Positions 3,608-62,742 of a DNA stretch of 64,000 nt are shown here, in pieces; position 1 is the first letter of the stretch; each line of letters opens with the position of its first letter. This stretch comes from Carcharhinus amblyrhynchos (Eukaryota). The position numbers were made by a program, and so were the translations under genes. Below the pieces are notes generated by a model that was given only the letters and a program-made list of their open reading frames with translations, searched no databases and had not been told where the DNA came from. The stretch spans positions 15,128,001 to 15,192,000 of the forward strand of contig OZ336878.1 in assembly GCA_965287045.1 (NCBI GenBank), written 5' to 3'.

Positions 3608-3729
3608 AAAAGCCTACTGCACCTGACATTCCCAGGCAGTCTCCCATCCAAGTACTAAACAGGCCCAAGTCTGATTAGCTTCCGAGATCAGATGACATCA
3701 GGCATTTTCAGCCTAGTGTGGCCGTAGGC
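3608..3729 (-). rRNA. 5S rRNA gene copy, probably a pseudogene or orphon
   Basis: Reverse complement is GCCTACGGCCACACTAGGCTGAAAATGCCTGATGTCATCTGATCTCGGAAGCTAATCAGACTTGGGCCTGTTTAGTACTTGGATGGGAGACTGCCTGGGAATGTCAGGTGCAGTAGGCTTTT. This is full-length 5S with a C box and T4 terminator, and several CpG-decay changes. Confidence 0.92.
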
Positions 3730-10834: not shown

Positions 10835-11715
10835 TACACGTATTAACAGTGAAAAATATCGTTTCTTGTGCACTATTACAAACAAGGCATACCATTTGTT
10901 GAGAAGGAAACGGGAGCACAGAATGTTGTGTTTTATACAAGGAAGGTGGTTGAGGTGGACACGCTGGGAGTCAAAGCTAGGGTGTAGAGAAAGATCAACT
11001 TAATGCAAGTCCATTCTGACAGCAGCAGGGAAGAAGCTGTTCTCAAGTCAATCGATACGCGACCTCAGACCTAATGCAAGTCCATTCTGACAGCAGCAGG
11101 GAAGAAGCTGTTCTCAAGTCAATCGATACGCGACCTCAGACCTTATATCTATTTCCTGAAGGAAAAAGGTGGGAGAGAGAATGACTGGAGTGCGTGGGGT
11201 CCTTAAATTATGCTGGCTGCTTTGCCGAGGCAGCGGGAAGCATAGACAGAGTCAACGGATGGGAGACTGGTTTGTGTGATGTATTGGGCTACATTCATGA
11301 CCTTTTGTAGTTTCTTACGGTCTTGGGCAGAGCAGGAGCCATACCAATCTGTGATACAACCAGAAAGAATGCTTTCTATGGTGTATGTGTAAAAGTNNNN
11401 NNNNNNNNNNNNNNNNNNNNNNNNNNNNNNNNNNNNNNNNNNNNNNNNNNNNNNNNNNNNNNNNNNNNNNNNNNNNNNNNNNNNNNNNNNNNNNNNNNNN
11501 NNNNNNNNNNNNNNNNNNNNNNNNNNNNNNNNNNNNNNNNNNNNNNNNNNNNNNNNNNNNNNNNNNNNNNNNNNNNNNNNNGTGATCTGGACACCAAAAA
11601 ACTTGAAGCTCTCAACCTTTTCTACTTCAGCCCCATTGATGAAGACAGGGGCATGTTCTCCTTTACGCTTCCTAAAGTCAATGATTATCTCCTTTGTTTT
11701 GTTGATGTTGAGGGA
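10835..11715 (-). mobile_element. Rex1/Babar fragment spanning the assembly gap
   Basis: Reverse complement of the 6128-6823 sequence. Contains a 71-bp tandem duplication at 11001-11142. Confidence 0.85.
11397..11581. other. Assembly gap (185 N)
   Basis: Run of n. Confidence 1.
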
Positions 11716-16654: not shown

Positions 16655-16740
16655 GACACTCATCTGAAGGAGCAGCACTCCGAAAGCCTGTGGTTCCAAA
16701 AAAGCCTATGGGATTTTAACCCAGTATTGTGAGACTTCTT
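16655..16740 (+). mobile_element. Partial copy of the Penelope-derived hammerhead element, within degenerate CR1 sequence
   Basis: GAAGGAGCAGCACTCCGAAAGC...TTTTAACCCAGTATTGTGAGACTTCTT matches 32150-32225. The catalytic core is degenerate. Confidence 0.7.
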
Positions 16741-17665
16741 TCTATTTATATAGCCTACATCCCATATATTTTATTTACTTATTCCTCGACTTCCCCCACC
16801 AACTTCAAAGATTTGTGCACAGATGCCTCTGGGGCCCTCTGCCACTGCATCGCCATTAGAAAACAACCCATGCTTGTTTTCTTAATTTACTCACATTTGT
16901 CCAAGTGACTTAATTTTCATTATGTAGTTCTGGGTCCTGCCCTTTATCGAGCCGGGTCTCAATTTTCATCACAACATCAGATCCCATTTGGCTATCTGTA
17001 CCTGCAGCTCATCAACCTACTTACCATTCTGTTTTCACATATACACAGAACACCTAATATAAATGTTATTGCATTCTCTCACACCAAACTCACTTAATGC
17101 CTTACTATTTCTTACTCCAGTGTTGTTTCTCCCAATTCTTGTTGCACATCTTTTTTCCTTCTCTAATCTCAGATCTGCTTCCCATCCCCTTAGCAAGTTA
17201 GTTTCAACCCTCCCTAAAAGCACCAGGAATTCATCTTTTCAATTAATTGGTCCCAATTCTCTTTGGATACAATGTACAAGTTCCATCTTCCCCAGAATCA
17301 ATTCCAACATCTCAGAAATCTGAAGCTCTCCTTCATGCACCATCTCTCCAGCCACTCATTCAATTGTTCTTTTCCCCCTATTTTGTATCCACTACAGATA
17401 GTAATCTAGAAATTTTTGAGGTCCTATTTACTAGTTACTTTTCTGGTTCCCCAAAATCCTGTGGAGCCTCATATCCCTATTCATTCTATTTTCTCACACA
17501 TTTCCTTTGCCTCACCCCCACCCCCCCCCCCCCCCAACAAATGAAACTTCATTGCTGTGTTAATGTAAGCCTACTTGTGAGACTAATAAACTTAAAACTT
17601 CATATCCATCATCTGGGGTGTACGGTCGCATTCCATTGGGTACATAGGTGACTATCAAGACAAAC

Positions 17666-24501: not shown

Positions 24502-26319
24502 GGTCATTTTCACCTTGAAGAACTTTGCTATCAACGTTCATGAAGCAAATCAGTTAATTTAGCTAAATGGTGAAATTGTGCATTATTCATGGAAGCAATC
24601 CAGCTCGCAACTTTTAATGACAAGATTAGAATTTTAACTAAATATTAGCTGAAAGAGCTACAAAATTGCACACTAAGGAAGTGTGCAAGACTTGTATTGG
24701 AAACCAATCATCATTGGGGCTTTTAAATGAGTATTTGCCCAACTCTCTGGCCAAACATTGCTTGCAAATATTTGAAGTATTCTATGGTGAATGTAATTGT
24801 GATTACTTCATCAACTACAAACAAGGTGCCACATCAAGCAGGTGAAGTATCCCTAGTTGGCTTCAAAAAGAATCTTGCTCTAGTAAGTGAAATTCAAGTA
24901 GATCAGACCAGACAACGCACATAAAATGAAACATTGAAAAGCAATGCCGATCCAAGACAGGTTGAATTTGTTCCACAATACAATGCAGAATGACCAAGAA
25001 TTCTCTCTCAACCATCAGACAAATTAAACAGTCATTCATTCATTTTGTGGGACCTTGCTCTGTACAACTGGAGGCTGCATTTGCCTATATGACAGGTACT
25101 GCAATTCAAAGACAGATCATTGGATAGGTGTAAACAGACTTAAGAGAACTGCAAGTTTGCTCTAAACTGTTAAGGGCATTCTGAAACATTATCAAGCACA
25201 CATTTTGGATCAAACCAGTAAAAATAAACAGCATGCAGCACCCATTCTCAGCAACCAAGACAAGAGAGTTTCACACCTTTGTTTTTGATTTGATGTTCTA
25301 TAATCTCAATTAAAACTTGGAAACGACATCATTCTGCAGCCATTGTCATGCAACCATCTTAATACTGGTTGCAAACTTTTTAGCACTCTGCATTTCAAGG
25401 ACCAAATTATAAATTATTGTTGATTAAGTAAACCAAAAAGAAAATAGCATCAATGCATAATTTACAACAGTTTAGAAATTGTAAGGACTTAAAAACAAAT
25501 TTCTGACAAGATGCTTCATATCTTCTAGACAGATCCATTTGTAGGTTAATGGCTGTTCAATGGCATTTTAAAAATAACTTCAATTGTCTTACATAAAAGA
25601 ATCCAAAGATTAATGGTATTGTACATCACTGGACTTTGAATCTACTCTTTGGTGACAAAAGCCACCAAACACCATGCAGATTAAATATTCGGGCAAATTT
25701 CAAGACCAGCAGTCCATGCTGGAGGCAGAGTAGGAGCTTTGAAGTACACTGCAGTTCCTTTCAATTCCTACAACACTGCTGGCATGCTTTCCCCCATTTT
25801 GCCTAGAATCAGTGCCAGTGTTCACTTTAAGTGTGTGTGTGTGTGTGCAGAGTTGCAGTGCAGAACCTATTCAAAAAAATAAAGAACTGCACAAAGCTCA
25901 AAGAAATTACACTGGGGGAGAGGAAAAAAGGGGAAACCCAACTTTTCTGCTGTTGCTGTTGGGGGGTGGTGGGAAAGAGAATGATAAAACCCACCCAAGA
26001 CTTGGAGGGAGGGGGGGAGCAAGAATTGGTCGGAGATGTCATGTTGCGTGGCAGAGGAAGACATGGAAGCAGAGTGTGCTGTGCCGTCCCGCCTGAATTG
26101 CCTGTCACGCTGTCGAGCTGGCTGGGTCCAAACCACAACCCAACAGCCAACAAGCTGGAGAGAGGGGAAGGAATTGGGAATGGATGGCAGGCAAAATACA
26201 AGACAAAACTCCAACCGATCACCACCCACCTCAACATTACTATCACCACACAAACACCTCCCCCCCGCCACCACACCACACCACACTCTCGGTGAGCTTT
26301 ACTGCGACACGCAACGTAC

Positions 26320-26520
26320 CTTTATTTATTTTTTGGCACAAGGGAAGTGCGCGGATGAGCGGCGGGCCGGGTTTTATTGTCAGCGCTCGTCCTCCATCCA
26401 TCCAGCCACCGCCGCCATTTTGCTCGCTATTGTGCCCGGAGATGGTTGAAGGCGGGAGGGAGTGAGTGAGGGGGTGGGAGGAGAGAGTGAGTGAAAGAGG
26501 AAGGGGGGGAGTGAGTGATA
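26320..26520 (-). other. Candidate non-coding first exon with uORF MAAVAGWMEDER* (26418-26380); 5' end approximate
   Basis: AAAATGGCGGCGG on the minus strand and donor AAG|GTACGT at 26320/26319. Confidence 0.55.
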
Positions 26521-26699
26521 CAGAGGAGAGAGAGAGAGAGAAAGATGGTGGTGGTGGTGTGGAAAGAATGGGCAGCGAGGGGCCGGCCGTCGGGATGCCC
26601 TCCTCTCCGGCACCGGCCGGGCTGGGTGGTTGATTGGAAAGTGGGGTCCGGGGAGGGGGGGGGCGCCGGTTTCCTGTCACAAATGCGGGAGGCGGAATC

Positions 26700-26851
26700 C
26701 TTTGTCCCCCGCCAAGTGCGTGCTTTCCAAACACCCCCCCCCCCTCCGGCCGCCAGTGGAAGCGCCCTCCCTCGCGGACGCCTTCTCTCGGCCGTTTGTT
26801 TTTAAAGTGGCAGCTGGGGAAGCATGGAAATGGTGGCGGCTTCCTGACCAG
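26700..26851 (+). other. Candidate first exon of a divergent plus-strand transcript; 5' end approximate
   Basis: Donor CAG|GTGAGA at 26851/26852 inside the CpG island. Confidence 0.35.
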
Positions 26852-27949
26852 GTGAGAGAGAGAGAGAGTAGAGAGAACAGAATCCTCTGGCTTTCCACTG
26901 GTGCACACCCACGTTTATACACACACACACACACAATACCCCTGGGGGCTTGGGCTTTTTCTGTCCAAAGGAAAATGGCAATAAACACTACCAAATCAGG
27001 TGTCAAAATGGAAGGCAACTCGACGCTGCGAGGAAAATAATGTGTGGTGGCCAACTGGGCCAGTTCCCCATGGGACGCTGAGGGGAACCAGGCCTTCAGG
27101 AGAAGAGGCCACATCAAATTTTAAGCTCATACATAATAAACATCCAGCTCTGGCATGACCCGCGTTCTTTTAAACAAATCAATCTGACATCATTACACAT
27201 GGGAAGGTCGTTGCTTTTCTGCTGCCAGTGGTGTGCACATTTTGTATAGAAGCGGTGACAAAGAGCACCTTAATTAATATGCAGGGAACTATTTACTGCT
27301 GACTCAATGACTTCTGTCTTTGTAGCTGCTGGACAGGACATCTTCAAGAATTGTCAGCTGCCCATCTACAATTTAGGGAAGGTTTCTCTCAAAATTCCAT
27401 AACTTCTCCATTCTCATGGCAACTCTATCTCAAACACAATTCGTATTGATCGGTTCAGCATCTTTCATTAATTTTTTTATGGGTTATTTTTAAGCCTTGC
27501 CTTGGTTATTGTGTTTTTACAGAACATATCCCATTAAAGGATGATACTGTTGTCCTTTTTTTTAAGAAAATGGATGAATTGCTTCCATGCTTAGCATTTT
27601 ACATAATGGAAGCAGCAAATGACTTCATAGACGTTGACCATGTTTCAGCAGTGAGGATCAGCACTGTTATTTTAAATGGAAATTTCTAGAACTAAAATAA
27701 TTCAAACATATCTCCAAATCATCACTAAAATCAGCTAAAAGGTAAATGGAAAAGAAGATTGTGGTCAACTGTGGTGGTAATGGGAAAAGTTTTTCCAGTA
27801 TGAAGAGTCTATCATATTGTTACATTGAAAGAAACTGAGGACAGGTTACAAAGGCATCTTGGGATGATAGAAGTATTAAATTAGTACCTTTCATCAGTCT
27901 TCATCTTGAAGATGTTGCTCAATCAGCAGAATTTAATGATGTTAACAAT

Positions 27950-31599: not shown

Positions 31600-32345
31600 C
31601 AAGAACACAGGGGATGCCTGTGATAGGATGGAAAGCAGAACTGATTAAGTATCAAAAGGAAGGATGGTGGAAGGCAAAAGAGGCAGTAATCGGACAGGTA
31701 AAAAAAAAGGTGGTTCAAGAGCAGCTGTAAATAACAATAGAAGAATCATTATCTGCCATTTGAAAAGTGGTTATAACCTGAAGTTATTGAAATCAAAGTT
31801 AAGTATGGAACATTGTAAAATACCTAACTGAAAGACATTACAATGTTCCTGAAGCTTCCATTGAGCTGCTTTAGAACAGTGTATGGAGCCAAGGACAGAG
31901 AGGATATGGAGCGGAGGATTAGTATGAGCTGGACTGAAAGCTCAGGATCAGGCATGCAGACTGACTGGAGGTGTTCAGCATCATCCAATCTGCATTTGGT
32001 CTCACCAGTTTACAGGAGACACCATTGTGAACAGCAACTACAGTAAACTTAATTGAAAGAAATCTCACAGCATCAGGATAAAGTCCAACAGGTTTATCTG
32101 GAATCACAAGCTTTTGGAGCACTGTTCCTTCATCAGATGAGTCACCTGATGAAGGAGCAGCATTCCGAAAGCTCATGATTCCGAACAAACCTGTTGGATT
32201 TTAACCTGGTGTTGTGAGACTTCTTACTGCGCCAACTCCAGTCCAATGTCAGCATCTACATATCTTAATTGAAAGAAGTATATTCAATCACAGTTTCACC
32301 TGGAAGAAGTGTCTGGGCTCCTGAATGGTAGGAGGGGAGGGAGTG
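31600..32345 (-). mobile_element. Penelope-like GIY-YIG endonuclease relic
   Basis: The reverse complement of ~31990-32050 reads VYCSCCSQWCLL*TGETKCRL, a decayed LLYIGET motif. Confidence 0.7.
32062..32263 (+). mobile_element. Palindromic Penelope-derived mini-element with two hammerhead-like motifs and a 14-bp TSD
   Basis: CTTAATTGAAAGAA is duplicated at 32048-32061 and 32264-32277. Arms are inverted about 32141. TCAC-CTGATGA-AGGAGCAGCATTCC-GAAA-GCTC at 32142-32174. Confidence 0.85.
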
Positions 32346-32462
32346 AAAGAGAACATTAGAACAGAAGTAAGCTATTCAATGCCTGGAACCTGTTTTGTTA
32401 TTCAGTGAAATCAAGGCTGATCAATGACAACTTCATTCACCCAATTTTGCTACATCCTCCTG

Positions 32463-34499: not shown

Positions 34500-37400
34500 A
34501 TTGGAACACCTTTTCTTCCACTGTTCTGCCACCTCTTCTTACCTGGCATACCTGTATGGGCAAATATCCATCATTATCCCAAGCCACTACTCAGACTGCT
34601 AAAGGAGGACAGGCTGGTGTCGCCCATAGCATTCGCTCAAATCCAGCGGTGGACTTTATTACTGGATGCCTACAATTATCGATCAGACCATTGTCCAGGA
34701 GGCTGAGTAGCCAACGCAGATACCTTGAGTTGGCTACCGTTAGCAGACACATCATCAGTGGTACCCCCAATTGAAGAGACAGTGATGACAATGAATATTT
34801 TAGAAACTCTCCCAGTGGCAGTAAATAATATTCAGCTGTGGACCCAAAAGACCCAGTTAGTACTGACCAAAAACAAAAAAGCCATTACAGCCCACATTTT
34901 ACCCATACTAAAGTCGCAGAGAGCAGCTGGAATTTGCATATTCCTGTGGTATTCCAGCGTGGTCATCCTGAGTTAGGGCCACTGTCTCATCCTAGCCAAA
35001 CTTCACCATGGCCACGCAGGAGTGAAAAAAATGAAAGTGCTCGCAAGGAGCTATGGTTCACCATGGTAGGCTTCTGCAGAAAATGCAGATGTATGGGATT
35101 GGGGGTGATCTAGGTAATTGGATCAGGAATTGGCTAGCAGATAGGAGACAGAGGGTGGTGGTTGATGGTAAATATTCGTCATGGAGTTCGGTTACGAGTG
35201 GTGTGCCTCAGGGATCTGTTTTGGGGCCACTGCTGTTTGTAATTTTTATTAATGATCTGGATGAGGGTATAGTTGGGTGGATTAGTAAGTTTGCTGATGA
35301 CACCAAAGTCGGAGGTGTGGTAGATTGTGAGGAAGGGTGTCATAGTTTGCAGGGTGACTTAGAAAGGTTGCAGAGCTGGGCCGCGAGGTGGCGGATGGAG
35401 TTTAATGTGGAGAAGTGTGAGGTAATTCATTTCGGTAGGAATAACAGATGTGTTGAGTATAGGGCTAACGGGAGGACTTTGAATAGTGTGGAGGAGCAGA
35501 GGGATCTAGGTGTATGTGTACATAGATCCCTGAAAGTTGGGAATCAAGTAGATAAGGTTGTTGAGAAGGCATACGGTGTCTTGGCGTTTATTGGTAGGGG
35601 GATTGAATTTAGGAGTCGCAGCGTCATGATGCAACTGTACACAACTCTGGTGCGGCCGCACTTGGAGTATTGTGTGCAGTTCTGGTCCCCACATTACAGG
35701 AAGGATGTAGAGGCTTTGGAGAGGGTGCAGAGGAGGTTTACCAGGATGTTGCCTGGTATGGAGGGGAGATCCTATGAGGAGAGACTGAGAGATTTGGGGT
35801 TGTTTTCGCTGGAAAGAAGGCAGCTAAGAGGGGACCTTATTGAAACATATAAGATGATTAGAGGTTTAGACAGGGTAGATAGTGTTAGCCTTTTTCCTAG
35901 GATGGAGAAAGCTAGCACGAGGGGGCACGACTTTAAATTAAGGGGGGGTAGTTATAGGACTGATGTCAGGGGTAGGTTCTTTACCCAGAGGGTGGTGAGG
36001 GACTGGAATGCCCTGCCAGCTGCAGTTGTAAATGCGCCTCGTTTGGGGGCGTTTAAGAGATCTGTGGATAGGTTTATGGACGAAATGGGATTGGTTTAGA
36101 TTAGTGGGTTAGTGTTGTTTTTTTTTAAAAGCTGGTCGGCGCAACATCGTGGGCCGAAGGGCCTGTTCTGCGCTGTAATGTTCTATGTTCTATGTCTGGT
36201 GACCAGGCATGGATACAGATATAGCTGGACTCGTGGGTAAGTGTCGGCATTGCCAACAAGGGCAGAAGCTATTACCAGCAACTCCTCTGCACCCCTTGGG
36301 AACGGCCAGGAAGGCCGTGGACTTGGCTACACATTGTCTGTGCAGGTCCGTTCATGAGTTTAATGTTCCTAGTAATGATGCCCATTAAAAATGGATGCAC
36401 ATACACAGGGTGAATTCATCAAACACAAGAACAGCAGTGGAGAAACCTCATGCCTCTTTCGTGACACACGGGACCCAGTTGTGCTGGTTTCTAACAATGG
36501 ACCATCCTTTACCAGCCAGGAATTTGCTGATTTTATAAAGTCAACTGGTATTCAGCACATTAGGACAACACCATATCACCCATCATCTAACAGTCTGGCA
36601 GAAAGAACAGTCCAAACATTAAAGGCAAGTTTAAAGAAACAGCCCACAGCCTCCTTGGACATCAAACTGTCCAAATTCCTCTTCGATGACTTGACAACAG
36701 CCCCCCCGCCATGCAACTACTAGAATAGCCCAAGCCCAGTTGCTCATGGGCAGACCGCACCAGATTGAGCCTGATCTTCCCAAACTTGGAGGCAGGGTGC
36801 AAAGGCATCAGGAAGCACAGTGCCGAGCTCAGAACAACTCCAGCTGGGAGAGACTCGTAAAGGTGGGTGATCAAGTGTTATTAAAGAATCATGAAACTGG
36901 CCCTGCCTCATTACAAAGCACATTCGACTCAAGGATAGGACCTACAATGTCCGTGTGGAAGATACTATCCTACAAAAACACCCAGACCATTTAAAAGCTG
37001 TTAAGCCCCAGACCATGCTGGAACAATCTAAACCCAGCATATTGGAAGCCTCGGAAGAAATTCTGGGATCTGCTGGTTCCCACTCTCCATCTCCAGTCAT
37101 TGGAACCTCGGAGTCAGAACTAGACACGGTGGACTTAGTCACATCGACTCTTGCCACCCGATGAAGAAAGTGAACCCATGCTTCGACGCTCGAGACAAAA
37201 GACGCGAGTTCCAGTCCGTTACTACTCACCTACATCTCACTAGAGCTGGAGGATCTGGACCCGGTGTTGAAATGCCGCAAAAGGCTCGCAAAGCAAATGA
37301 CCCACTGAGGTTCCTTGGACCTGGAAGGGGAGGGATTTTAACTTGTTGGAATATGAGCCCCTTGATTGAGACAATTAATGCTGCCTAATCCTGGAGTCCT

Positions 37401-37546: not shown

Positions 37547-37704
37547 AATGCATCTTATATACACTGCTGCTACTGTTCACTGGTGGTGGAAGGAGTGAAT
37601 ATTTGTGGAAGCTGTGCCAATCAAGTGAGCTGCTTTGTCTTGGATGGTGTCAAGTTTCGTGACGGTTGTTGGAGCTGCACTCATCCAGCTGCCTGTCTCT
37701 CATT

Positions 37705-38300
37705 TCCAGCAAATAGAAGGGATGGCTCTGGATAGCTACATGAGTTCTTGTTATTCCTGTCTTTTTGTGGGGTATGTGGAACATTCCTTGTTTCAGTTCA
37801 ATTCAAACCTCCTCCCACAATTCTTTTTCAGGTACATTAATGAATGTATCAGTGCCACATCATATGTTATCTGGACCTGGAAAAATTTATCAATTTTCCT
37901 TCCAATTTCCACTCTGTCTCACCTTCACATAGTCCATCTCCAACACTTCCCTTCCCTTCCTCAACCTCTCTGTTTCCATTTTTGATGATAGACTGTTTAC
38001 CAATATTCATTACAAATCCACTGACTCTCAGCTACCTTGACTACAGTTCCTCCCACCCCACTTTCTGTAAGAACTTCATCCTATTCTCCCAGTTTCTCCA
38101 CCTCCGTTGTATCTGTTCCAAAGATGCTACCTCACAAAATGGCACTCCTTTTTCCAGAACCAAGCGCCCCGCACCCTCCCCACTGTGATTGACAACTTCA
38201 CTGCTCATCTGTTCCAACCCATCTCCTGCACTCCTGCCCTCACCCCTTTCCCTCTCTCCCTATGATGGAGGCTCCCTTGTGCTCACTTTTCACCCCAGCA
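37705..38300 (+). mobile_element. Penelope-like RT relic
   Basis: QIEGMA, CLFVGYVEHSLF, FFRYINEC (YIDD site), YLDYSSSHP and SQFLHLRCICS. Confidence 0.85.
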
Positions 38301-39339
38301 ACTCAATAATTTATTAATTGCTTATTTTGAAATGAAGGACAGGCTGCTGATTTCCATGCCGTCTCACCTTTCGTAATATCAGAAACTGGCATGATGACAT
38401 TATATTCCAGAGCTGATATCATCAAGCCTGTGACAAGTAGCCTACCTAATTTGCGGCCATAACATACACCACAGACCTTCATCAATCTAAAATGATTCTT
38501 AGCTCCTGAAGGTTTATTCTTTTTTATCTTTCTCAGCCTGGTAACTTGCAATCTTGTTCTTTCACAGTGAGGTTTTCTTTTAGGGTATTAGGGAAGTTGA
38601 AATCTACCAGTATTACTGTTATTTGCATACATATGTTCTCTTCTATCTCCCTGAGTGGTTGATTGTGTGATTAGTGTGATTGCTATTTTTTGTTCCTCAA
38701 TTAAATACATATGGTCTCATTAATGATCATTCGAGCATATCATCTGTCCTCACAGCTGTGATTCTTTCTATAAATGGAACCTGCCCACCTTTTCTGTCCC
38801 CTCTATTCCGTCTGAAAACCCTGCAACCAAAAACTGTGGAACTGCCATTCCTCTCCCTCTCCAAGCCATGAAGCTATCTTTCTCATTCATCCTTTCAAAT
38901 GGCTTTAGGAGCAGAAGCTGTCATCAAAGCCAAGTTCCCTAACCATCCAATGGCCTGACAGAGAGTAAGTGTAAATCCAGGATGTTGCCCTTGAATGTGA
39001 GACGGAAGCAAGATGTTATGCTGTGCTTCGTGGTTTGTTTAGAGTTTCTGCAGTCACAGCTGGGGGGAGACTTTAAGGTGTCACTTGTCCTTTAGATGGC
39101 CACATCAGCCAAGTCCAGTCTGTATTCTATTGAGAGTTCCCATGTACCCCAGGGAAAATTGAAACCTGATAGTTGAGATGTTGGGTCAGAGAAAGTGACC
39201 TCCCCTCCTGCCACGGGAATCGGAGCAGGCAAAGGGCAGACAGTGGGAAGATCCATTGACCTCGGATGGGATTTTAAGGTTTTGGGATGAGCGAGACCAG
39301 ATGAGGAGATCCAAATTGTTGCTGATATGAGTTATTTCT

Positions 39340-45739: not shown

Positions 45740-47850
45740 AAGAATGCTTACCCACTGCTGCAGATGGATGATCTGTTTTCAATGTTTGCAGGAGGCAAGA
45801 TGTTGCCAAAACTTGACATGAGCCATGCCTACCAGCAGCTCTTATTAGAGGAGGATATAACACTCTCAAGAGTTTGTTCAAATTCAACTCTAAAAAATTC
45901 TTAGAGATTAGAAATGGATGCGAACAGTGCAGAAGATATTCAAAAGATCGTGCGCAGGTAGGCGCAGTGCTTCAAATGAGAAAAGAGGCAGCAAACGAAA
46001 AGGCAAGAGCAGTGGAGTGTTTCAGCTGAATGTGGAGTCACCATGCAAATAATCGCAAATTCATGGACACCGTCTGTCACTGTTGCAACAATAAAGAACG
46101 TATAGCTAAAAAGTGCAGGAGCGCTAAAAGCAAGTCGAAGGCTGGGCTGGAAGATTCAAATTCAAAAAAGCCTCTGTCAGCTGCACATCACCTGGAAAGC
46201 ACAGAGCAGGTAGAGGAGTGTTCCTACATCGTGTTCAATGTGAGTGAGGTGCCCGCAGAACCTATCAGTGCTCCAGTGGGGGTCGATGGAAGGGAAATTA
46301 AGGTGGAAATGGACATGGGAGCCTCTACATCTGTTTTCAGTGAGGAGACTTACAAAAAACTTAGGCTCTGAACAGGTACCGCCCTTACTCAGGAAGGGAT
46401 GAAATGACCGACGTACACCAGAGAAACTATACCATTGCCTGGGGCATTAGAGGTGGATATTGCATAAAACAGCCAAGAAGCAAGAGCATGGTGGTAAAAG
46501 GGAAAGGACCTAGTCTACTGAGGTGTGACTGGCTCAGTAAAATTCCGTTGAAATGGAGTGAGATAAAGCACACACAAGACACAGAGGATGTCATTCAGAA
46601 ATATTCTGAGGTTTTCAAAGATGTACAGGGTACATTGCATGGCACCACAGTTAAGTTTTTTGTAGATTCTCAGGTTACTCTTCACTTTTTAAAACCCAGG
46701 GTAGTGCCCCATGCCATGCAAGGCAAAGTGGAAGAGGAGATGGTGCAGCTGCATTGCTCATCTGTAATTCCATTCGACATTGAGCCCATTCAGTTCTCAC
46801 ATTGAGAAGCTCCGATTGCTGTTGTTTTTAAAGATGTTGGTAGGGTGCGCATTTGTGGGGATTATAAACAATATCAATCAGGCCTCCAAGCTGGATGCTT
46901 ACCCACTGATGCAGATGGATGATCTGTTTGTAATGTTTGCAGGAGGCAAGATGTTGTCAAAACTTGACATGAGCCACGCCTAACAGCAGCTTTTATTAGA
47001 GGAGGACATAACACTCTCAAGAATCTGTTCAAATTCAACCGTCTGCTTTTGGGATGTCTTCCAGTCTGGCGATATTTCAAAGGACAATGGATAATCTGTT
47101 GTAGGGAATTGCTCATGTAGCAGTTAACTTGGATGATATCTTAATCACAGGGAAAACTGAGGAGGCACACGTCAGCAACTTGGATGCAAAGTTGAAGGGA
47201 TTTCTACCTAAAGCATAGAGGTGCATCTTCCCGGCATAGAGTCTGGAATATTTGAGTCATAAAATCACAGAGTAGAGTCTATCCCCGGCAGAGGACAAAG
47301 TCAGAACTCTCAAAGAATCTTCAAACCCCTGAAGTGTGTCCGAGCTTATTTCTGGGCATGGTAAATTACACAGAAAGTCTCTGCCTGACCTTTCAACAGT
47401 GTTGGTGCCACTCTTCACAGAGAAACTCAATGGAAGTAGGGGCATGCACAGAAGAAAGCTACAGAAGAAAGTACAGACGACAAGACACTGATGAGCCTTT
47501 TTAGTGAAGCCAGGTGCGTTCCTCTCATATCCTCGGTGAGAATACAGTGCTGGCTCTTACACTGTTAGCCTACCAGTATAACATTGTATACAGGGCAGGG
47601 AAGGGAAGGACAACGCAAACACAGATGTGCTGAGTCGTCACCCTTTCCATACTTGCCTACCAAGAAATCTGTTCCTCCAGAGACAATTTTATTGGTCGAA
47701 AGGCTTTCAATTTCTGTGATAACACGAGCCCCACAGGGAGATCAGTCATTGATTCTCCATGGACCAAGTGAGGGTTATCACAAATGCCAAACAAATTAAG
47801 CAGTGGACGGACCAGGATCCTGTTGTATCCCAGGTGAGGATATTATTGCA
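45740..47850 (+). mobile_element. Ty3/Gypsy relic: gag zinc knuckle, protease, RT and RNase H
   Basis: CHCCNNKERIAKKC, MEMDMGASTS, GPSLLRCDWL, YPLMQMDDLF..FAGGK..SKLDMSHA and LDDILI. Confidence 0.9.
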
Positions 47851-50287: not shown

Positions 50288-51512
50288 TTGATTTGATTTG
50301 ATCTGATTTATTATTGTCACATGTATTAGCACACAGTAAAAGTATTGTTTTTTGTGCACTATACAAAGCATACCATTCATAGAGAAGGAAACGAGACAGT
50401 GCAGAATGTAATGTTACAGTCATTGCTAGGGTGTAAAGAAAGATCAATTTAATGCAAGGGAAGTCCATTCAAAAGTCTGACAGCTGCAGAGGAGAAGCTG
50501 TTCTTGAGTCAGTTGATACGTGACCTCAGACTTTTGTATCTTTTTCCCAACGCAAGAAGGTGGAAGCGAGAATGTCTGGGGAGCATGGAGTCCTTACTTA
50601 TGCTGGTTGCTTTGCCGAGGCAGCGGGAAGTGTAGACAGAGTCAATGGATGGGATGGGAGGCTGGTTTGTGTGATAGATGGCTACATTCACAAACTTTTG
50701 TAGTTTCTTGCAATCTTGGGCAGAGCAGGAGACATACCAAGCTGTGTTACAACCAGAAAGAATGCTTTCTATGGTGCATCTGTAAAAGTTGGTGAGAGTT
50801 GTAGCTGACATCCCAAATTTCCTTAGTCTTCTGGGAAAGTGGAACTGAGCCACGACAGATCAGCCATGATCTTATTGAATGGCGGGGCAGGCTCGAAGGG
50901 CTAGATGGCCTACTCCTGCTCCCATTTCTTATGTTCTGAGAAAGTAGAGGCGTTGGTGGGCCTACTTAATTATGGTGTTGGCATGGGGGGACCAGTGTAG
51001 GTTGTTGGTGATCTGGACACCTAAACCTTGAAGCTCCTGACCCTTTTCTTCCCATTGTTGTGGACAGGCATGTTCTCTTCTATGCTTCCTGAAGTCAATG
51101 ACAATCTCTTTCATTTTGTTGACGTTGAGGGAGAGTTTATTGTTGTCGCACCAGTTCACCAGATTCTCTATCTCATTCCTGTACTCTGTCTCGTTACTGT
51201 TTGAGATCCAACTCACTACAGTGGTGGCGTCAGCAAACTTGAAAACTGAGTTGGAGGGGAATTTCGCCACACAGTCATAGGTATATAAGGTGTATAGTAG
51301 GAAGCTGAGAACACAGCCTTGTGGGCACAGTTTTGAGGATAATTGTACAGGAGATGTTGTTGCCTATCCTTAATGATTATGGTCTATGGGTTAGGAAGTT
51401 CAGGATCTAGTCGCAGAGGAAGGAGCCAAGGCCCAGGTCAAGGAATTTGGAGGTGCGTTTCATAGGAATAATGGTGTTAAAGGCTGAGCTCCAGTCAATA
51501 AGTAGGAATCTG
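50288..51512 (-). mobile_element. Rex1/Babar LINE fragment
   Basis: KFADATTVV, LSLNVNKMKEIVIDFR and RRLRKFGMS, with a (TCAAA)n tail. Confidence 0.92.
50834..50938 (+). mobile_element. ~105-bp CR1 3' end nested in Rex1
   Basis: TTCTG at both junctions (50829-50833 and 50934-50938); near-identical to the reverse complement of ~1612-1715. Confidence 0.85.
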
Positions 51513-52860
51513 ACACTTGGAACAATACTGCTGTTCCTTCATTGTCACTAGGTCAAAATCAAGGACCTCCCCTCACCGTTGATGTGCCATCACCACACGG
51601 ACTGCAGTGGTTCATGACGTTGGTTCACCACCTCAAGGGGCATTAGGTATTGGCAATAAATGCAGTTCTAACTGGCAATGCCCTCATCCCATGAATAAAT
51701 TAAAAAAATCCCTTGAGAGAATTTTTTAAACTTGTGTACCTTTAGCAACATAATCAACCAAACATTAACAGATTCCCTTTCTTTCTTTAAACAAAATATT
51801 TATATCACACCAAAACGCAATCAAATAAAAAAATTGAATTTCCATATTTCTTACAATTCATCAGAACACAAGACCTCTTATAGGGTCTCTTATGATTTCT
51901 GGGAGCATGCATTTCTCTTTGTAGAACAGTCTGGTCGTTGGTGATTTGCACCAATTGCATTTTATTTAAAAAATCTCTTTTCTTGCCAAAATTCTCTTTT
52001 ATCTAGCAAGGTCAACTTTTTCTCAATGACACTGTTGAATGAACATCATCCCAAGAGAGTAGTCATCATGCAGCATTCAATGGGTAAATTTTTCTCAAAA
52101 TGCCCTTTGAAAAGGATTTCCTTCAGAATGTTAGTTAATTATAATACCATTTCAGTTGTGATTATGCAGCTGAGTACTTTTTTCTTCATTTTTCAGGTCA
52201 GGGAACAACACTTTCCACTTTTCCCCACTAAGAAAATAATAAACCTACCTGCATTCGAATATCCATCTGGAAGATTGGCATGGGAAATATTGTTAAAAAG
52301 AATAATTTCATATCTTTTGGATCACCGAAGTCTGTGTCATTCTCCAGAATTGATTTCTTTAATATTTTTACATTCAATTGCCCAGAAAAGGTAGAACTAA
52401 TTGTAGCCCCTTCCAAGGGCAAAGGATGATCACACATCACAGAAGATATTTTTGGATTACTCTCATAGACCAATAGATAGGCACTATAGCTCCCAACCAT
52501 ATGAAGCAAATTCTTTGCATGGGTTGTTCAGATCAGCAAACGTTAGCTTACAATTTGGTTGGTCAGCTGAGATCTAATGGAGCATCTCATTAATCACCGT
52601 GTGATTTATTTCACAAAGCCAATTAATTACCGAAGGGATTTTCAGCCACATTGTTCAGCATTACAATGTTCATATTTTCACACATGCCTCTAAGTTGGTC
52701 ATTGGGCCCATTTCCCCCATTGTCAATCGGGAATAAAGCCAATGCCCCCAGTTTGGTCCCTATCAATTTTTCCATGATTTTATCTACAATCACTCTTATA
52801 CCTTTACCACATATTACTGCAGTCAGACTGAATCTTGTTGCAATGTCGATGAAATGAAAG

Positions 52861-53744
52861 AGTGGGATTTTCCCAAAAAAAATTGTAAGTGCCAAATTCA
52901 CATAACAACTGAAGTAATTCCTGCTGGTTTTTTCAGCGGGATTTTCAAAATTAATCTCCCACAGTGTGCATCACAGAGATCCCTAATGTGAATCTCATTA
53001 AAAAGCTGCGGGCAAGGCCTATTCCCACTGGAGAGGCTGGCAGCATAACGCTGAGTAGGCCGCTGCACGTGCACCAATCTGTCAGTGCTGAGATTGGTGC
53101 ATGTGCAGTAGCCCCACACTGCCAGACTGCCAACCGCTGGCCAAATCAATCGCTAGACAGCCCCGTGACCCCACATTGCTGGCTATGCAATCCCCCCCTC
53201 CCCCTGGGCTGCCTTAATCCCTACTCCCACCCAATATTCAGCCCCAATTGCTGGCCTCCCTTTGTTGCCAAATCTGTGCAGAGTGGCAGCAGGACCCCCC
53301 CGTGCCCACTGATCTCCGTCCAGAGCCACCCCCCCTCCCCCTGCTCCATTAGCCATTGTCCCCTCTGATTCCTCCCTTGGTACTGCCCAAGGGCACCTTA
53401 CCATTACCCCCGACCTCCTGGGGGGGGGCTTCCATGGCTCCTCTTCACTCCAGCGGGGTTGGGGCACAAGCTCTCCACTAGTGGGGAGCTATTGTAAACC
53501 CCGCAGGAGTGAAACACTCCTGGCGGGGGGCAGAAGGGAGGCTAGCTGGGCTGGAGATTTCAGTCCTGGGTCGCTAATGACATGTAAATGAATATTAGCA
53601 TAATTTATACAGTCTGCGCCGATTCTTGGCACAGAGCTGAAGACACCAAAAATCTGGGGGCCGGGGAGAAGCCTGTTACACGGCCTCCATTTGAGTTTCC
53701 CAGCCTGCCAAGCTGCTAAAGCAGTGAGCAGGGAGGATTGTCCC
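52861..53744. mobile_element. Non-autonomous DNA transposon (MITE) inserted in the Copia integrase
   Basis: GC-rich block with ends GGGATTTTCCC and GGGAGGATTGTCCC that splits the integrase reading frame. Confidence 0.65.
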
Positions 53745-55092
53745 CAAAACATTTCCGTCCTTGTCCAATGCCTTTAAATTCATAGCTATTGCTTCATTAA
53801 AGCCTCGTGCTAATACAAGACATACAATAAGTCATGATTGTGTCCTTTGATACTTCTTTCATATATCACGTTTTTCACTAATCTCTTCAATGAGTTTTGC
53901 GTACTCATTATCAACTGCCCCTGTATCCTTCAGTAGGATTTTTAATCTGTGACAAGAGGGATGAACAAATTGCCGATGCAATTTAATGTCAATTTGCTTT
54001 TTTCTCTCAAATTCCTGTCACCTGATGCCATTAATACCTCTTTAACATTCTGATTAGAGATGCTAGGTGTTGTTAAAAGGATGCAATAATGTCCTAATTG
54101 GGAAAATTACAAATCTACTGATTTAACAAAGACATTTGCTTTATCATATTCCAAGTCAAATTTCATTTGTGCCTTTTTCATGGATGATTTGCTCAGTTGC
54201 AAGGTTTCTTCACTAGATATTCCAGCTCTGCAAATAAAGTGGCTCACCCCATTAGTCAAATGGAATCACCACTCTTTTCAATGAGTTTACCATGTTGTCA
54301 TCCTGAGCCTGAACCCAGTAGAACTTTCATATTCCTTGACCTTACTTTGACCCTTACTGCTGAGTGAATCTAAATAACATTTCCAACAACTTATTCCACA
54401 TACTGTGGATGTGCAACCACTGTCCAATATAGTGTATTTAAATGAATCCATTACTATGACACTCTTTGCTGGACTGAAGGTTCTTATGATCAATCTAATT
54501 CCCTCAATATCTTCTTCCACTTTTGAACCTTCCATATCATGCTTTTGCTCAAAAATCCTGTTATTCCATTTTGGATAATTTAGTGCATAATGGTATTTCA
54601 AATCATATCTGAAACACCAGTTCATAATTCCCTGGGAATTCCTGCAGTTCATTCTTCTGTTATTACTGTATTCCTGTTGTTTGCCACATCTGCCAAACAG
54701 GTCTCCACCCTCATGTGTTCATCTGTGAATCTTCTGTTGTAGTGGTGCCACACCCCCTATCTGAACAGTTTTGAAATGTTGTGAGCATTGCATCCTCCAT
54801 GTCTTGTGACACTCCTGATTGTACTATTTGTGTACGAAGACTATTGGAAATTATGGTTTTCCCTTTTAAAACCTCAAACATCAGACCCAAAGCATGTCAC
54901 TTTCTGGAAATCTCACTGGAAATCTAAGACCTGGATCAACAAATTTGCATAATGCAACAGTTCAAAAGCAAGCAATGAATCGAGAGTTTCCAGATAAAAT
55001 TTCTGCAATCTTGCATATAGTCTGTTAAACTCCATTATATGGTCCTCTTGAGAATAGACATCCATTTTTCTAAATTTATTAAAGTCCAACCT

Positions 55093-58101: not shown

Positions 58102-58971
58102 GGGCGGAATTTTACGGCCACTTTATGCCCATTTTGCGGAGGGAAAAGGCCATAAAATCGGGTGTAAAGCGGCTGGCTCGAATGATGCCTGCTTTCGCGC
58201 TTGTCGTGATTTTACGACATGCGGATTTCTGGCAGGACCAGCCTCTCGCTGGAAATGGGTGACAGGCTGATTAATTTATTTGAATTTATGTGTTTGTTCA
58301 TTTCATTGTTTATAGTGAGCCCAGTGCTAAATTGTCCGGGCTCACATGCCCTTATAACCTTGCTGGGAGAGATTCTTTCTGGCAAGAACACCTACTCCCC
58401 ATGAATGGTGAACAGTTGTGCTGGCCTGGCCGATGTAACCAGAGGCCCCCCCAGGGAGGCCAAATGCAGGGCAGTGCCAAACTAACACCTGGGCAATGCC
58501 CACCAGGCAATGCCGGGGGCAGGGCCAATGGGAGGGCAGAGGATGTGCCTGTGGAGGCAGTGCTGAGGGCAGGGCCAATCGGTCTGGGTGGCAGGACTAC
58601 AATCAGCCTGGGCTGCAGGGCTGCAGTCAGTTTGGGTGGCGGGGGCTTTATCTTGGGCCGTGGGCCCCCACAATTAGGAGGGGTTATTGCTTGAGGCTGC
58701 CTGTAGTATCAGGGGCCTGACAGCTCTCTGTCTGTGAGACCCCTGCCACTGTTAATGCGCTTGTGCAGTATCAAAGATCTGCACATGCGCAATACCTCCA
58801 TCTACTGGCTGTCCCACCCACAGTCTCTCTGACTAGAAACTGACTAGCCCATCTTTTTAGAGACACAGTGCATAAGATTGGGTGTGAAAACTTGCCCAAA
58901 AAATGGATTTAGAATTCTCCCATTTTCAGTCTTGCTGGACACCTAGAAAAAAAACTCGTAAATCTCCACCC
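58102..58971. mobile_element. PIF/Harbinger-like MITE
   Basis: TIR GGGCGGAATTTACG / CGTAAATCTCCACCC and a 3-bp TSD (ATC). A related copy lies at ~61110-62388. Confidence 0.75.
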
Positions 58972-60390: not shown

Positions 60391-61546
60391 TTAGGCTACA
60401 GCAGATGGCAGTTAAGACTCAGCCATGTAGATGTGGGAAAGGAGTCACATATAGGCCATATGCTTTCTGCATAGGAGAAACTCGGACTGTCCTTGAATGT
60501 TGTATCTATCTGCATCTGGTCAGACAAAATATTCCATTCCCCCATTGAACAAGAGACTCTGGAATATGTTCCCTTTGATACTCAGGCTGCTATCCAAGCA
60601 CCAAATCAGGAACGCAGCAAAAATGCACTCAGCCTAATCAGCTCTGCAATGCCCTCCTCACTTAAATTTGGAGACCGGTGCCCACGTTGTGTGAGCTGCT
60701 CTGCAGAGTGGTCAAACAACAACCTGACCTACTGATAATCCTGGGCTCTCCCATTACCATCCTTGCAGAAATCCCACGGGTAGACTAGATAAGGTAAGGA
60801 TGGCAGATTTCCTTCTCTAAATGACATTAGTGGTCCAGATGGGGTTTACAACAGTCATGGCCCAGGTTCCTAGAGGATTACCCTGGGTCTCTGGATTAAT
60901 AGTCTGGTGACAATACCACTATGCCACCACCTTCCATACAACATGGCATAGCATACAACACATTCTTTGTAGAGGCAATGTCCCATTGTGCCCCTGCTAT
61001 ATGTCTGCGAATGCACAGGTTTGTAAACTCCCCATAGCAACTAAGCCCTTTTTACATGTAAACTGGTACTTATTCTGGAGAATAATGTTGTGGTTGTTCT
61101 GAAGATTAAGAGCCAAATTTTAATGGCTTGCCCTGCCCATTGATGAGCAAGAACTGAGAAATCAGGATCATGCCTGATTTCTTGGCTCTCGTGATTTTAT
61201 GAGACCCGGATTTGCGGCGTGGTCAGCTTCTCACCGGAAAAGGGCATGAGGCTGATTAATTTATTTAAATGCTGTTTAGCGAGCCTGCGCTTAATCGTCC
61301 CGGCTCACTTGCCTTTACGGCTTTGTCTGGAGAGGTTCTCTCCGATGAGGAAAACACCTGCTCCCCATGAATGGGGAACAGTTGTGTTGGCTTTGCCGGT
61401 GGAACTGGAGTTCATTTAGGCCCCCTGGGGAGGCTGAGGGTAAGGCGGAGGTGCCCCTTGGGCAGTGCCAGACTTTCAGTGCCACCCTGGCACCATGACA
61501 CTGCCAGCTTGGCACTTGGGCAATGCCTACTGTGCAACTTAGCAGT

Positions 61547-61811
61547 CATGATGTAGAGATGCTGGTGTTGGACTGGGTAAACACAGTAAGAAGTCTCACA
61601 ACACCAGGTTAGAGTCCAACCAGTTTATTGATAGTAATCTTACTAGCTTTCGGAAACAGAAACGGTGTTCCTTCGTCAGGTGTGTGGAAGGTTCTCACAC
61701 ACCTTCCACGTACCTGATGAAGGAACACCATTTCCAAAAGCTTGTAAGATTATTATCAAATACACTGATTGGACTCTAACCTGGTGTTGTGAGACTTCTT
61801 ACTGTGTTCAC
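61547..61811 (-). mobile_element. Palindromic Penelope-derived mini-element with two hammerhead-like motifs and a 9-bp TSD
   Basis: CTTAGCAGT at 61538-61546 and 61812-61820. Minus-strand CAC-CTGACGA-AGGAAC...GTTTCC-GAAA-GCTA-GTA at ~61683-61641, with a plus-strand mirror at ~61711-61746. Confidence 0.85.
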
Positions 61812-62388
61812 CTTAGCAGTGCCAGTTGATGGGGCCACTGGGAAGGGTTGGGGACTGTAGGGTTGGGACTAAGAAGGCAGGGCCAATGTGGGAGTTGGGG
61901 ACTGTGGGGGTAGGGCCAATGGGGGTAGGCCAATGTGGGTAGAGCCAGTGAAGGGTGAGGGGGCCCGCAGCCACTCTGCCTATGATCGGTGGGGGAGGAA
62001 AGGTGTGCCTGCAGCCATTCTGCGTGTGATCAGAGAGGGACAGAGGGGCACCGTCACTCTGCTTGCGATCAGTGAGGAAGGGAATGGGGACGCATTCAGT
62101 TTGGGCAGTGGAGATGTGGCAAGGACTGCATCTCAGGCTGCAGGCCCCTGTGATTGGTGGGCAGTTGCTGGTTAATGCTGCCAGCAGTAGCAAGAGCCTG
62201 ACAGCTCTCTCTCTTGTGTGTCAGACCCCTGCTGTTGCATTTGCCATGTGCAGCATCAGAGGTCCACACGTGTGCAATACCTCCCTCTACAGACTAGCTC
62301 GCAAATTAAGCCCAGCCCACAGCCTCGAGTGGCTAGAAACTGACTAGCCCATCTTTTCAGAGACTAAGTGCAGAAGATTGGGTGTAAA

Positions 62389-62476
62389 ATCACCTGATGA
62401 AGGAGCAACGCTCCAAAAGCTCGTGCTACCAAATAAACCTGTTGGACTTTAACCTGGTGTTATGAGACTACTTACT
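62389..62476 (+). mobile_element. Single-arm copy of the hammerhead mini-element
   Basis: CAC-CTGATGA-AGGAGC-AAC-GCTCC-[A]AAA-GCTC-GTG. Confidence 0.8.
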
Positions 62477-62742
62477 GACATTAACACTGCAATGAAGTTA
62501 CTGTGAAAATCCCCCAGTCACCACACTCCGGCACCTGTTCGGGCACCCTGAGGGAGAACTTAGCAAGGCCAATGCACCTGACCAGCAATTCTTTTGGACT
62601 ATAGACGGGAACCGGAGCACCCGGAGGAAACCCACATGGACACAGGGAGAATGTGCAGACTCCTCACAGACAGTGACCCAAGCTGGGAATTGAAACTGGG
62701 TCCCTGGTGCTAAGCAGTGTTAACCACTGTGCCACCATACAG
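62477..62742 (-). mobile_element. HE1-like SINE with the alternative tail
   Basis: Same family as 12710-13005. Confidence 0.85.

What the first reader, a model, noticed from the sequence alone, without database searches (positions are those of the whole stretch)
32048..32277. TSD-flanked ~200-bp palindrome carrying two minimal hammerhead-like ribozymes: a possible non-autonomous, ribozyme-based retroelement family
Seen: a 14-bp direct repeat flanks a non-coding hairpin. Each arm reads stem I (CAC/GTG), CUGAUGA, an extra A, stem II (GGAGC/GCUCC), GAAA, then GC-UH. The same unit recurs at 61547-61811, 62389 and 16655. Known: Penelope-like elements carry minimal type I hammerheads with a palindromic stem III that cleave as dimers, and they leave inverted 5'-truncated copies. 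Inference: stem III is reduced to the 4-nt palindrome AGCU and could form only between two RNAs. The palindromic layout puts a motif in the transcript whichever strand is read. These could be retrozyme-like parasites mobilised by Penelope RT, and intronic copies could cleave pre-mRNA or form dsRNA. This copy sits inside a Penelope GIY-YIG relic.
Basis: partly seen in the sequence, partly recalled or inferred. Interest (0 to 1): 0.75.

Follow-up and report, generated by a model that had tools for sequence, protein, structure and literature searches.

The report
Decayed inverted Penelope retrotransposon end
This is a real but ordinary, aged footprint of a Penelope-type retrotransposon, in which two copies of the element's ribozyme-bearing end were inserted head to head, and its long hairpin and mutations make working ribozymes unlikely today.

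Summary
The anatomy is real: an exact 14-bp target duplication, 84-bp inverted arms (81% identical) and a minimal type I hammerhead motif in each arm. A second palindrome lies at 61538-61820 with a 9-bp duplication; 62389 and 16655 are single arms. The palindromes are lopsided: one arm runs 29-43 nt further. Inverted 5'-truncated ends, a one-sided 30-40-bp tail, variable duplications and this exact motif (extra base after A9, palindromic helix III, opposite-strand pairs) are all published features of Penelope-like elements (PLEs). The claim of two ribozymes fails. Only 2 of 6 arms keep the catalytic core; 3 lost G12 at a CpG. No arm has both an intact core and a 3-bp stem I. In either palindrome's transcript the motif is locked in a hairpin 30-36 kcal/mol more stable than a ribozyme-compatible fold. 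The two palindromes differ in fold-back point and sub-family, so they are not copies of one palindromic unit. There are no tandem repeats, so they are not retrozymes. The GIY-YIG host relic is supported on the left flank only. One lead remains: the 5' ends sit just upstream of the ribozyme core at 3 of 4 loci. Verdict: new member of a known kind, low interest.

The parts
32048..32061 (+). Left copy of the 14-bp target-site duplication of copy A; its last 5 nt are a microhomology with the element
   Evidence: Exact repeat; junctions. The endonuclease match begins inside it (32054, 32057).
32057..32140 (-). Short inverted arm of A (pLTR-like end without tail), ending 46-51 nt after the cleavage position
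32104..32140 (-). Minimal hammerhead remnant in the left arm: G12->A at 32115, H17=U, 4th stem II pair broken; predicted inactive
   Evidence: G12 is the general base per PMC6155905
32141..32142 (.). Head-to-head junction, 1-nt spacer, 4 nt upstream of the hammerhead core
32142..32225 (+). Long direct arm of A, paired part
32142..32178 (+). Minimal type I hammerhead motif in the right arm: core 32146-32152, extra A 32153, stem II 32154-57/32163-66, G12 32167, palindromic AGCU 32170-73, C17 32174; first stem I pair mismatched
32226..32263 (+). Unpaired 38-nt one-sided tail; in the single arm it can pair with the upstream part of the 3' region
   Evidence: fold z=-2.8 for A, z=-0.76 for B
32264..32277 (+). 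Right copy of the 14-bp target-site duplication
31780..32057 (-). Host: broken C-terminal GIY-YIG endonuclease relic of an older PLE (stop codon, frameshift)
   Evidence: tblastn to P0050 residues 358-400, 44%, E=0.001; flank-only profile hits at model 77-111 (iE 5.9e-5) and 126-174 (iE 0.009); Pfam on the relic itself found nothing
32278..32350 (-). Possible upstream continuation of the host relic; resemblance by eye only
   Evidence: Not detected; score 94 against a null mean of 108, with 1829 of 2000 random segments as high
61538..61820 (-). Copy B: 9-bp duplication (61538-46, 61812-20), 29-nt tail (61547-61575), arms about 61576-61692 and 61701-61812 (101 of 112 identical), 8-nt centre; left arm core intact with a 2-bp stem I, right arm G12->A
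62389..62477 (+). Copy C: single arm, G12->A, joined at its 3' side to another repeat through a 5-nt microhomology; no duplication found
16657..16743 (+). Copy D: single, most decayed arm, with a 3-nt deletion in the core and U16.1->C

Best explanation
Copy A is an extremely 5'-truncated insertion of an endonuclease-bearing Penelope-like element, of which only the pLTR end was copied, twice and head to head. Proposed steps: (1) the PLE GIY-YIG endonuclease nicked both strands 14 nt apart in an AT-rich site in an older PLE relic, giving the duplication (duplication shown; enzyme inferred). (2) The PLE reverse transcriptase copied uncleaved element RNA from two internal start points 30-40 nt apart, giving one tailed and one untailed arm (asymmetry shown; cause inferred from the anole PLE biochemistry). 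(3) Synthesis stopped just upstream of the hammerhead and the arms were joined, either by priming from both nicks or by cDNA fold-back (not distinguishable here). (4) The insert has since decayed neutrally, largely by CpG deamination. The hammerhead is the normal pLTR motif of the parent. It could work only as a dimer or with protein help in the parent RNA. In the palindrome's own transcript it is mutated or buried in double-stranded RNA, so it most likely does nothing. The claim shared with rival 1 (made by PLE enzymes, now inert) has about 0.87 confidence; the figure below adds that the template was an autonomous element.
For: Duplications of different length, 14 and 9 bp; 8-10-bp duplications around inverted pLTRs are reported in PMC3846280. 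One-sided tails of 38-43 and 29-30 nt; a 30-40-bp tail at one end plus an adjacent inverted 5'-truncated copy are PLE hallmarks in PMC8557442. In PMC11167929 the tail equals the distance between two internal RT starts, both strands are nicked and extended, AT-rich sites are preferred, and unprocessed RNA is the main template. The motif matches PMC4209133: extra base between positions 9 and 10.1, G10.1-C11.1, palindromic 15.2-16.2, and dual motifs 100-700 bp apart on opposite strands. Both arms of B share 12 private alignment columns, while no other pair of the 15 shares more than 1, so both arms came from one template at insertion. A and B fold back 4 and 13-21 nt upstream of the core. Decay: 20 of 41 polarised changes are C>T or G>A; CpG-type columns differ in 13 of 59 cells. 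Sequestration costs 30.5 (A) and 36.3 (B) kcal/mol, and the hairpin already dominates partial transcripts.
Against: No full-length parent linked to this end was found: no arm adjoins PLE coding sequence in register, and two scans of bacterial and archaeal genomes and one of plasmids found nothing (those collections are not expected to hold it). Random truncation would not predict that 3 of 4 loci have firmly bounded 5' ends within 4-21 nt of the core. Core bases outside CpG differ less than the rest (1 of 51 against 48 of 390, p=0.03). That count drops copy D's 3-nt core deletion and counts B's sub-family marks twice; with all sites it is 4 of 63 against 58 of 437, p=0.15. The 5-nt junction microhomology in A contrasts with the homology-free priming reported. 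Only two palindromes were available.
Confidence: 0.6

Rival explanations
1. Same PLE enzymes and same insertion chemistry, but the template is a dedicated short non-autonomous RNA (a solo-pLTR, SINE-like derivative of about 110-130 nt) that begins just upstream of the hammerhead. The hairpin is still made anew at each insertion.
For: 5' ends lie 4 nt (A), 13-21 nt (B) and 4 nt (C, bounded by a host repeat that matches 58636-58889) upstream of the core. No longer copy is among the 6 arms found in 64 kb. pLTR sequences suffice for mobilisation in trans (PMC3846280). Non-autonomous PLE derivatives are reported (PMC8557442; bioRxiv 10.64898/2026.07.22.740005).
Against: The 5' ends are not identical, and A and B belong to different sub-families. 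No promoter or tandem source array was seen. Strong 5' truncation is usual for autonomous PLEs. n=4.
Confidence: 0.27
2. One reading: the whole palindrome is the mobile unit, a retrozyme-like parasite whose two hammerheads cleave as dimers in transcripts of either strand and could cut pre-mRNA.
For: Two duplication-flanked palindromes within 30 kb. Two arms keep an intact core. An intermolecular AGCU helix can be drawn at -8.1 kcal/mol for A's right arm. Stem II pair 4 changes from G-C to A-U in B.
Against: The motif is buried in a hairpin 30-36 kcal/mol more stable. 4 of 6 arms have core lesions. The drawn hybrids (-8.1, -4.4) are no better than two monomers (-8.2, -7.2) and worse than the dimer minimum (-15.4, -14.6). 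Opposite-strand motifs cannot release a unit-length RNA from one transcript (inference). Copies span the cut site instead of starting at it. Centres differ. No tandem array. Covariation is not above the shuffle control (173-372 of 500). No A>G excess that would hint at passage through edited dsRNA: 4 A>G and 7 T>C of 41 changes (weak test).
Confidence: 0.05
3. A MITE or fold-back DNA transposon whose terminal inverted repeats happen to derive from a PLE end.
For: Short, non-coding, inverted arms flanked by a duplication.
Against: Duplication lengths differ (14 and 9). One arm has an unpaired terminal tail, so the termini are not inverted repeats. The outer ends of the short arms differ (46-51 and 62 nt after H17). 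Single arms occur.
Confidence: 0.04
4. A single PLE end was inserted and later duplicated in inverted form by DNA repair or replication fold-back.
For: Arms of one locus share private marks (B). Microhomologies occur at junctions.
Against: The duplication flanks the whole palindrome and no host DNA is included in the inverted copy, at 2 of 2 loci. Only 2 of the 4 self-palindromes found in the window are long, and both are this family.
Confidence: 0.04

Closest known systems
Minimal type I hammerheads (min-HHR) in pLTRs of metazoan PLEs (Cervera and de la Pena 2014, PMC4209133; read parts 1-2 of 4)
   Same: CUGANGA core, unpaired base before stem II, G10.1-C11.1, short stem I, palindromic helix III needing a dimer; found in fish Xena, Poseidon and Neptune PLEs, genome-wide as single motifs, and as opposite-strand pairs 100-700 bp apart.
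   Different: Stem II here is 4-5 bp. The two motifs of A are only about 10 bp apart. These copies are decayed. The parts read name no cartilaginous fish.
Inverted, tailed, 5'-truncated insertions of endonuclease-bearing PLEs (PMC3846280, passages and Discussion; PMC8557442, passages)
   Same: Head-to-head inverted pLTRs, palindromic junction, one-sided 30-40-bp tail, variable duplication, insertion into another PLE.
   Different: Here nothing but the two ends remains (about 200 bp, no reading frame). The passages read describe longer inserts.
Poseidon element of Anolis, PAc (PMC11167929; read parts 1-2 of 4; supplement search found nothing in 7,325 characters of text)
   Same: Two internal RT starts defining the tail, both strands nicked, AT-rich target, protein-assisted hammerhead not needed for insertion, uncleaved template.
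   Different: No sequence comparison was made. The clade of the parent of this end is undetermined. The matching distances are an analogy.
Animal non-LTR retrozymes (PMC7229834, passages; bioRxiv 10.64898/2026.07.22.740005, parts 1-3 of 5)
   Same: Non-coding, type I hammerhead, link to PLE pLTRs; the preprint reports them in one chondrichthyan genome.
   Different: Retrozymes are head-to-tail tandem repeats with a motif in each unit that yield circular RNAs. This is head to head, with no tandem units and mostly broken cores.

Membership tests
PLE-type minimal type I hammerhead (motif class) | CUGANGA ... GAAA ... UH core | tested here: met
   Family consensus and 2 of 6 arms; not met by the other 4 arms, including A's left arm
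PLE-type minimal type I hammerhead (motif class) | Unpaired base between positions 9 and 10.1, and G10.1-C11.1 pair | tested here: met
   6 of 6 arms
PLE-type minimal type I hammerhead (motif class) | Palindromic helix III positions | tested here: met
   AGCU in 5 of 6 arms
PLE-type minimal type I hammerhead (motif class) | Stems I and II supported by covariation | tested here: inconclusive
   87.5% of 48 cells pair, against 22-62% when slid; 2 of 8 pairs change on both sides, not above shuffles; n=6
Functional hammerhead ribozyme (these copies) | Intact core plus stem I in one arm, foldable in its own transcript | tested here: not met
   0 strict hits; 30-36 kcal/mol penalty
Functional hammerhead ribozyme (these copies) | Self-cleavage 3' of H17 | not testable with these tools
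   Needs an in vitro assay or RNA-end data
Endonuclease-bearing PLE insertion | Inverted 5'-truncated copy, head to head | tested here: met
   A and B, 2 of 4 loci
Endonuclease-bearing PLE insertion | One-sided 30-40-bp tail | tested here: met
   38-43 nt in A, 29-30 nt in B
Endonuclease-bearing PLE insertion | Variable-length target-site duplication | tested here: met
   14 and 9 bp; none found for C and D
Endonuclease-bearing PLE insertion | End sequence is the pLTR of an element with an RT + GIY-YIG reading frame | not testable with these tools
   No eukaryotic genome collection was available; searches found nothing in prokaryotic and plasmid sets; PLE relics in the window are not attached to an arm in register
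Non-LTR retrozyme | Head-to-tail tandem units, each with a complete hammerhead | tested here: not met
   None of the 7 tandem arrays overlaps an arm; the arms are head to head
Non-LTR retrozyme | Circular RNA formed by double self-cleavage | not testable with these tools
   No RNA data; the geometry argues against it (inference)
MITE / DNA transposon | Terminal inverted repeats reaching both ends, and fixed duplication length | tested here: not met
   One-sided tails; 14 and 9 bp

The most novel reading that the evidence does not exclude
The fold-back point is set by the hammerhead itself: either a short non-autonomous PLE RNA starts there, or the folded, uncleaved motif stops the PLE reverse transcriptase and triggers inversion. 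That would give an abundant family of about 200-280-bp lopsided hairpins built fresh at each insertion. It would also give the PLE hammerhead a structural role as a stop or inversion signal, and help explain why it is conserved although cleavage is dispensable for insertion in vitro. The basis is that 5' ends lie 4, 13-21 and 4 nt upstream of the core at the 3 loci where the end is bounded (of 4). I did not find this described in the listings of 8 searches or in the texts read; subscription papers and repeat databases were not searchable.
Probability: 0.2. Interest if true: 0.55.

Novelty: new member of a known kind. Interest (0 to 1): 0.22.

Why it matters
As it stands it matters little: it is one more PLE end family with the expected ribozyme motif, useful for repeat annotation and as a clean natural example of the tail-plus-inversion footprint. 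Such minimal inserts do record both nicks, both RT start points and the inversion point within about 230 bp. A genome-wide set could therefore separate double priming from cDNA fold-back, which is an open step in PLE transposition, and could test whether the hammerhead fixes the inversion point. If copies are transcribed, the likelier host effect is long double-stranded RNA, not cleavage (inference).

Tried and rejected
Rfam at E<=5: 5 matches, no hammerhead; the mir-552 match (27.9 bits against a cut-off of 100) only reflects the hairpin. Strict descriptor: 0 hits. A profile of the 6 arms found no further copy; the next best E was 0.067. The tail was not found elsewhere; the best chance match was 13 nt. 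Pfam on the GIY-YIG relic: nothing. Word-index protein searches: nothing for the relic or for the RT relic. In the whole-window profile search the relic was the top hit but weak, 0.9 bits and iE 0.11; it is significant only in the flank-limited test and by tblastn. The right flank as an endonuclease continuation failed twice. Covariation was not above shuffles. Excess core conservation was not significant over all sites. A conserved 3' stem-loop was supported in A (z=-2.8) but not in B (z=-0.76). Isolated motifs fold no better than shuffles (z=0.73 and 1.39). Related loci: none in prokaryotic genomes or plasmids. The shared lower-strand nick context of A and B is post hoc with n=2 and is not claimed. 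A dsRNA-editing signature was not seen. Left open: the names and organisms of the reference proteins, a language-model look-up of the relic, the metagenome and viral contig collections, any eukaryotic genome, the figure content of the PMC11167929 supplements and its GenBank file, and the preprint's supplements, which may list the chondrichthyan families. That the window comes from a cartilaginous fish is my recall of such repeats and comes from no call.

Full report
Context. The window is repeat-rich eukaryotic DNA (GC about 0.37-0.48; CpG observed/expected 0.24) with RT and integrase relics. That it is from a cartilaginous fish is my recall and was not tested. No gene model was built, so 'intronic' is untested.

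Observation. Copy A has an exact 14-bp direct repeat at 32048-32061 and 32264-32277, with a chance of about 2e-6 after allowing 400 offsets. Inside are inverted arms at 32057-32140 and 32142-32225, 68 of 84 identical, folding at -112.3 kcal/mol, z=-13.9. The right arm continues 38 nt (32226-32263) without a partner. Copy B (61538-61820) has the opposite orientation, an exact 9-bp duplication, arms 101 of 112 identical, an 8-nt centre and a 29-nt one-sided tail; it folds at -177.1 kcal/mol, z=-22. Copies C (62389-62477) and D (16657-16743) are single arms without a convincing duplication. A profile of the six arms found no seventh.

The ribozyme motif. The arms' consensus is a minimal type I hammerhead: a 4-bp stem I, CUGAUGA, an extra A, a 4-bp stem II, GAAA, GC, UH. 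A relaxed descriptor gives 3 hits against a mean of 0.13 in 100 Markov controls; one of the 3 is unrelated. Rfam's hammerhead models do not match. PMC4209133 describes this class in PLE pLTRs, including the extra base, the palindromic helix III, weak dimer-only cleavage and opposite-strand pairs.

State of the arms. Only A's right arm and B's left arm keep all 11 core bases. A's left arm, B's right arm and C have G12->A at a CpG; D lacks three core bases and U16.1. G12 is the general base (PMC6155905). A's right arm has a mismatch at the first stem I pair and B's left arm has two stem I pairs, so a descriptor needing three finds nothing. Pairing is 87.5% of 48 cells and falls to 22-62% when partners are slid, but covariation does not exceed shuffles. 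Core bases differ in 4 of 63 cells against 58 of 437 elsewhere (p=0.15). Without CpG columns it is 1 of 51 against 48 of 390 (p=0.03), but gap cells, including D's core deletion, were dropped and B's sub-family marks count twice. This fits selection on the source element followed by neutral decay; 20 of 41 polarised changes are C>T or G>A.

The palindrome disables the motif. Forcing stem II and an unpaired core costs 30.5 kcal/mol in A and 36.3 in B, and the ensemble probability of stem II rounds to zero. The antisense arm is transcribed before the sense arm on either strand, and partial transcripts already bury the core. Drawn intermolecular hybrids are no better than separate monomers; such energy models ignore tertiary contacts and protein help. 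Opposite-strand motifs cannot excise a unit from one RNA, and the copies span the cleavage site, so the template was uncleaved (inference from sequence).

How it arose. PMC8557442 lists an adjacent inverted 5'-truncated copy and a one-sided 30-40-bp tail as PLE characters. PMC3846280 shows head-to-head inverted pLTRs with a 31-bp tail, 8-10-bp duplications, junction palindromes and insertion into another PLE, and proposes self-priming. PMC11167929 shows that a purified PLE protein nicks and extends both strands at AT-rich sites, starts at two internal RNA sites that define the tail, uses uncleaved RNA, and assists but does not need the hammerhead. Here the long arms end 89 and about 92 nt after H17 and the short arms 46-51 and about 62 nt after it. 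B's arms share 12 private columns and no other pair of the 15 shares more than one, so both arms came from one template; A's arms share none in the compared region, which is uninformative. A and B fold back at different points and are different sub-families, so they are independent products. I infer staggered nicks, two cDNAs or one folded-back cDNA from the same pLTR RNA, head-to-head joining and decay.

Host relic. A search with an RT relic at 37698-37865 returned 98 unnamed proteins; 4 of the 9 scanned carry both RVT_1 and GIY-YIG. P0050 aligns to 32054-31932 on the minus strand at 44%, E=0.001. A profile of six such C-termini hits the left flank in two colinear pieces (iE 5.9e-5 and 0.009), starting within the duplication, although the whole-window score is weak. 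Pfam and a word-index search on the relic alone found nothing. The right flank failed. Whether this relic belongs to the family that made the insert is unknown.

Rivals and comparison. Non-LTR retrozymes are head-to-tail tandem repeats with a motif per unit; none of the 7 tandem arrays in the window involves the arms, so membership fails. Their derivation from PLE pLTRs is already proposed in a 2026 preprint that includes one chondrichthyan genome, so the parasite-of-Penelope idea is not new either. A MITE is excluded by variable duplications and one-sided tails. A short non-autonomous template remains open: the 5' ends at A, B and C lie 4, 13-21 and 4 nt upstream of the core; D's end is not bounded. 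No related loci could be fetched, so the link to a full-length parent is untested.

What I saw of each paper. PMC4209133: parts 1-2 of 4. PMC11167929: parts 1-2 of 4, supplement list and a term search without hits. bioRxiv 10.64898/2026.07.22.740005: parts 1-3 of 5, no supplements. PMC3846280: passages and Discussion. PMC8557442, PMC8969392, PMC6155905, PMC7229834: passages only. All others: search listings only.

Verdict. The feature is real, and it is an aged, minimal PLE-type insertion, not a working double ribozyme. New member of a known kind; interest 0.22. The most novel reading still open, that the hammerhead sets the 5' end or inversion point, has a probability of about 0.2 and would merit about 0.55.

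Noticed in passing
window 37698-38341 (+): Frameshifted PLE reverse-transcriptase relic; tblastn to RT + GIY-YIG proteins with E down to 3e-19. Not attached to any hammerhead arm.
   Followed up: partly
window 3611-3729 (-): Single full-length 5S rRNA-like copy, 81 bits to RF00001; probably a pseudogene or a 5S-derived repeat head.
   Followed up: no
window 2428-2711 and 3061-3345: 285-bp inverted duplication at 95% identity enclosing about 350 bp of other sequence.
   Followed up: no
window 26001-27000: The only CpG-island-like kilobase (observed/expected 0.58, GC 0.58); possible promoter or first exon, with an ATG near 26419 on the minus strand.
   Followed up: no
window 32048 and 61538: Both target duplications start with CTTA and share a 6-nt context around the lower-strand nick; post hoc, n=2, a possible endonuclease preference.
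   Followed up: partly
window 62470-62738: Copy C is fused through a 5-nt microhomology to a member of an abundant ~190-260-bp repeat with more than ten copies in the window; it looks like a deletion junction.
   Followed up: partly
window 35035-36096 (+), 4369-5082 (-), 50965-51363 (-), 36379-36720 (+): RT open frames (RVT_1; the longest is 354 aa) and an integrase-core relic. 52626-52970 (-) and 54290-54718 (-) look like further LTR-element pieces by eye; Pfam found nothing for the latter.
   Followed up: no
window 53444-53513 and 53063-53108: Two short imperfect palindromes unrelated to the hammerhead family.
   Followed up: no
window 11397-11581 and 11001-11143: 185-base assembly gap, with an exact 71-bp tandem duplication about 250 bp upstream; possibly an assembly artefact. 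45744-45888 and 46895-47039 form a 145-bp direct repeat at 93% around retroelement-like sequence.
   Followed up: no
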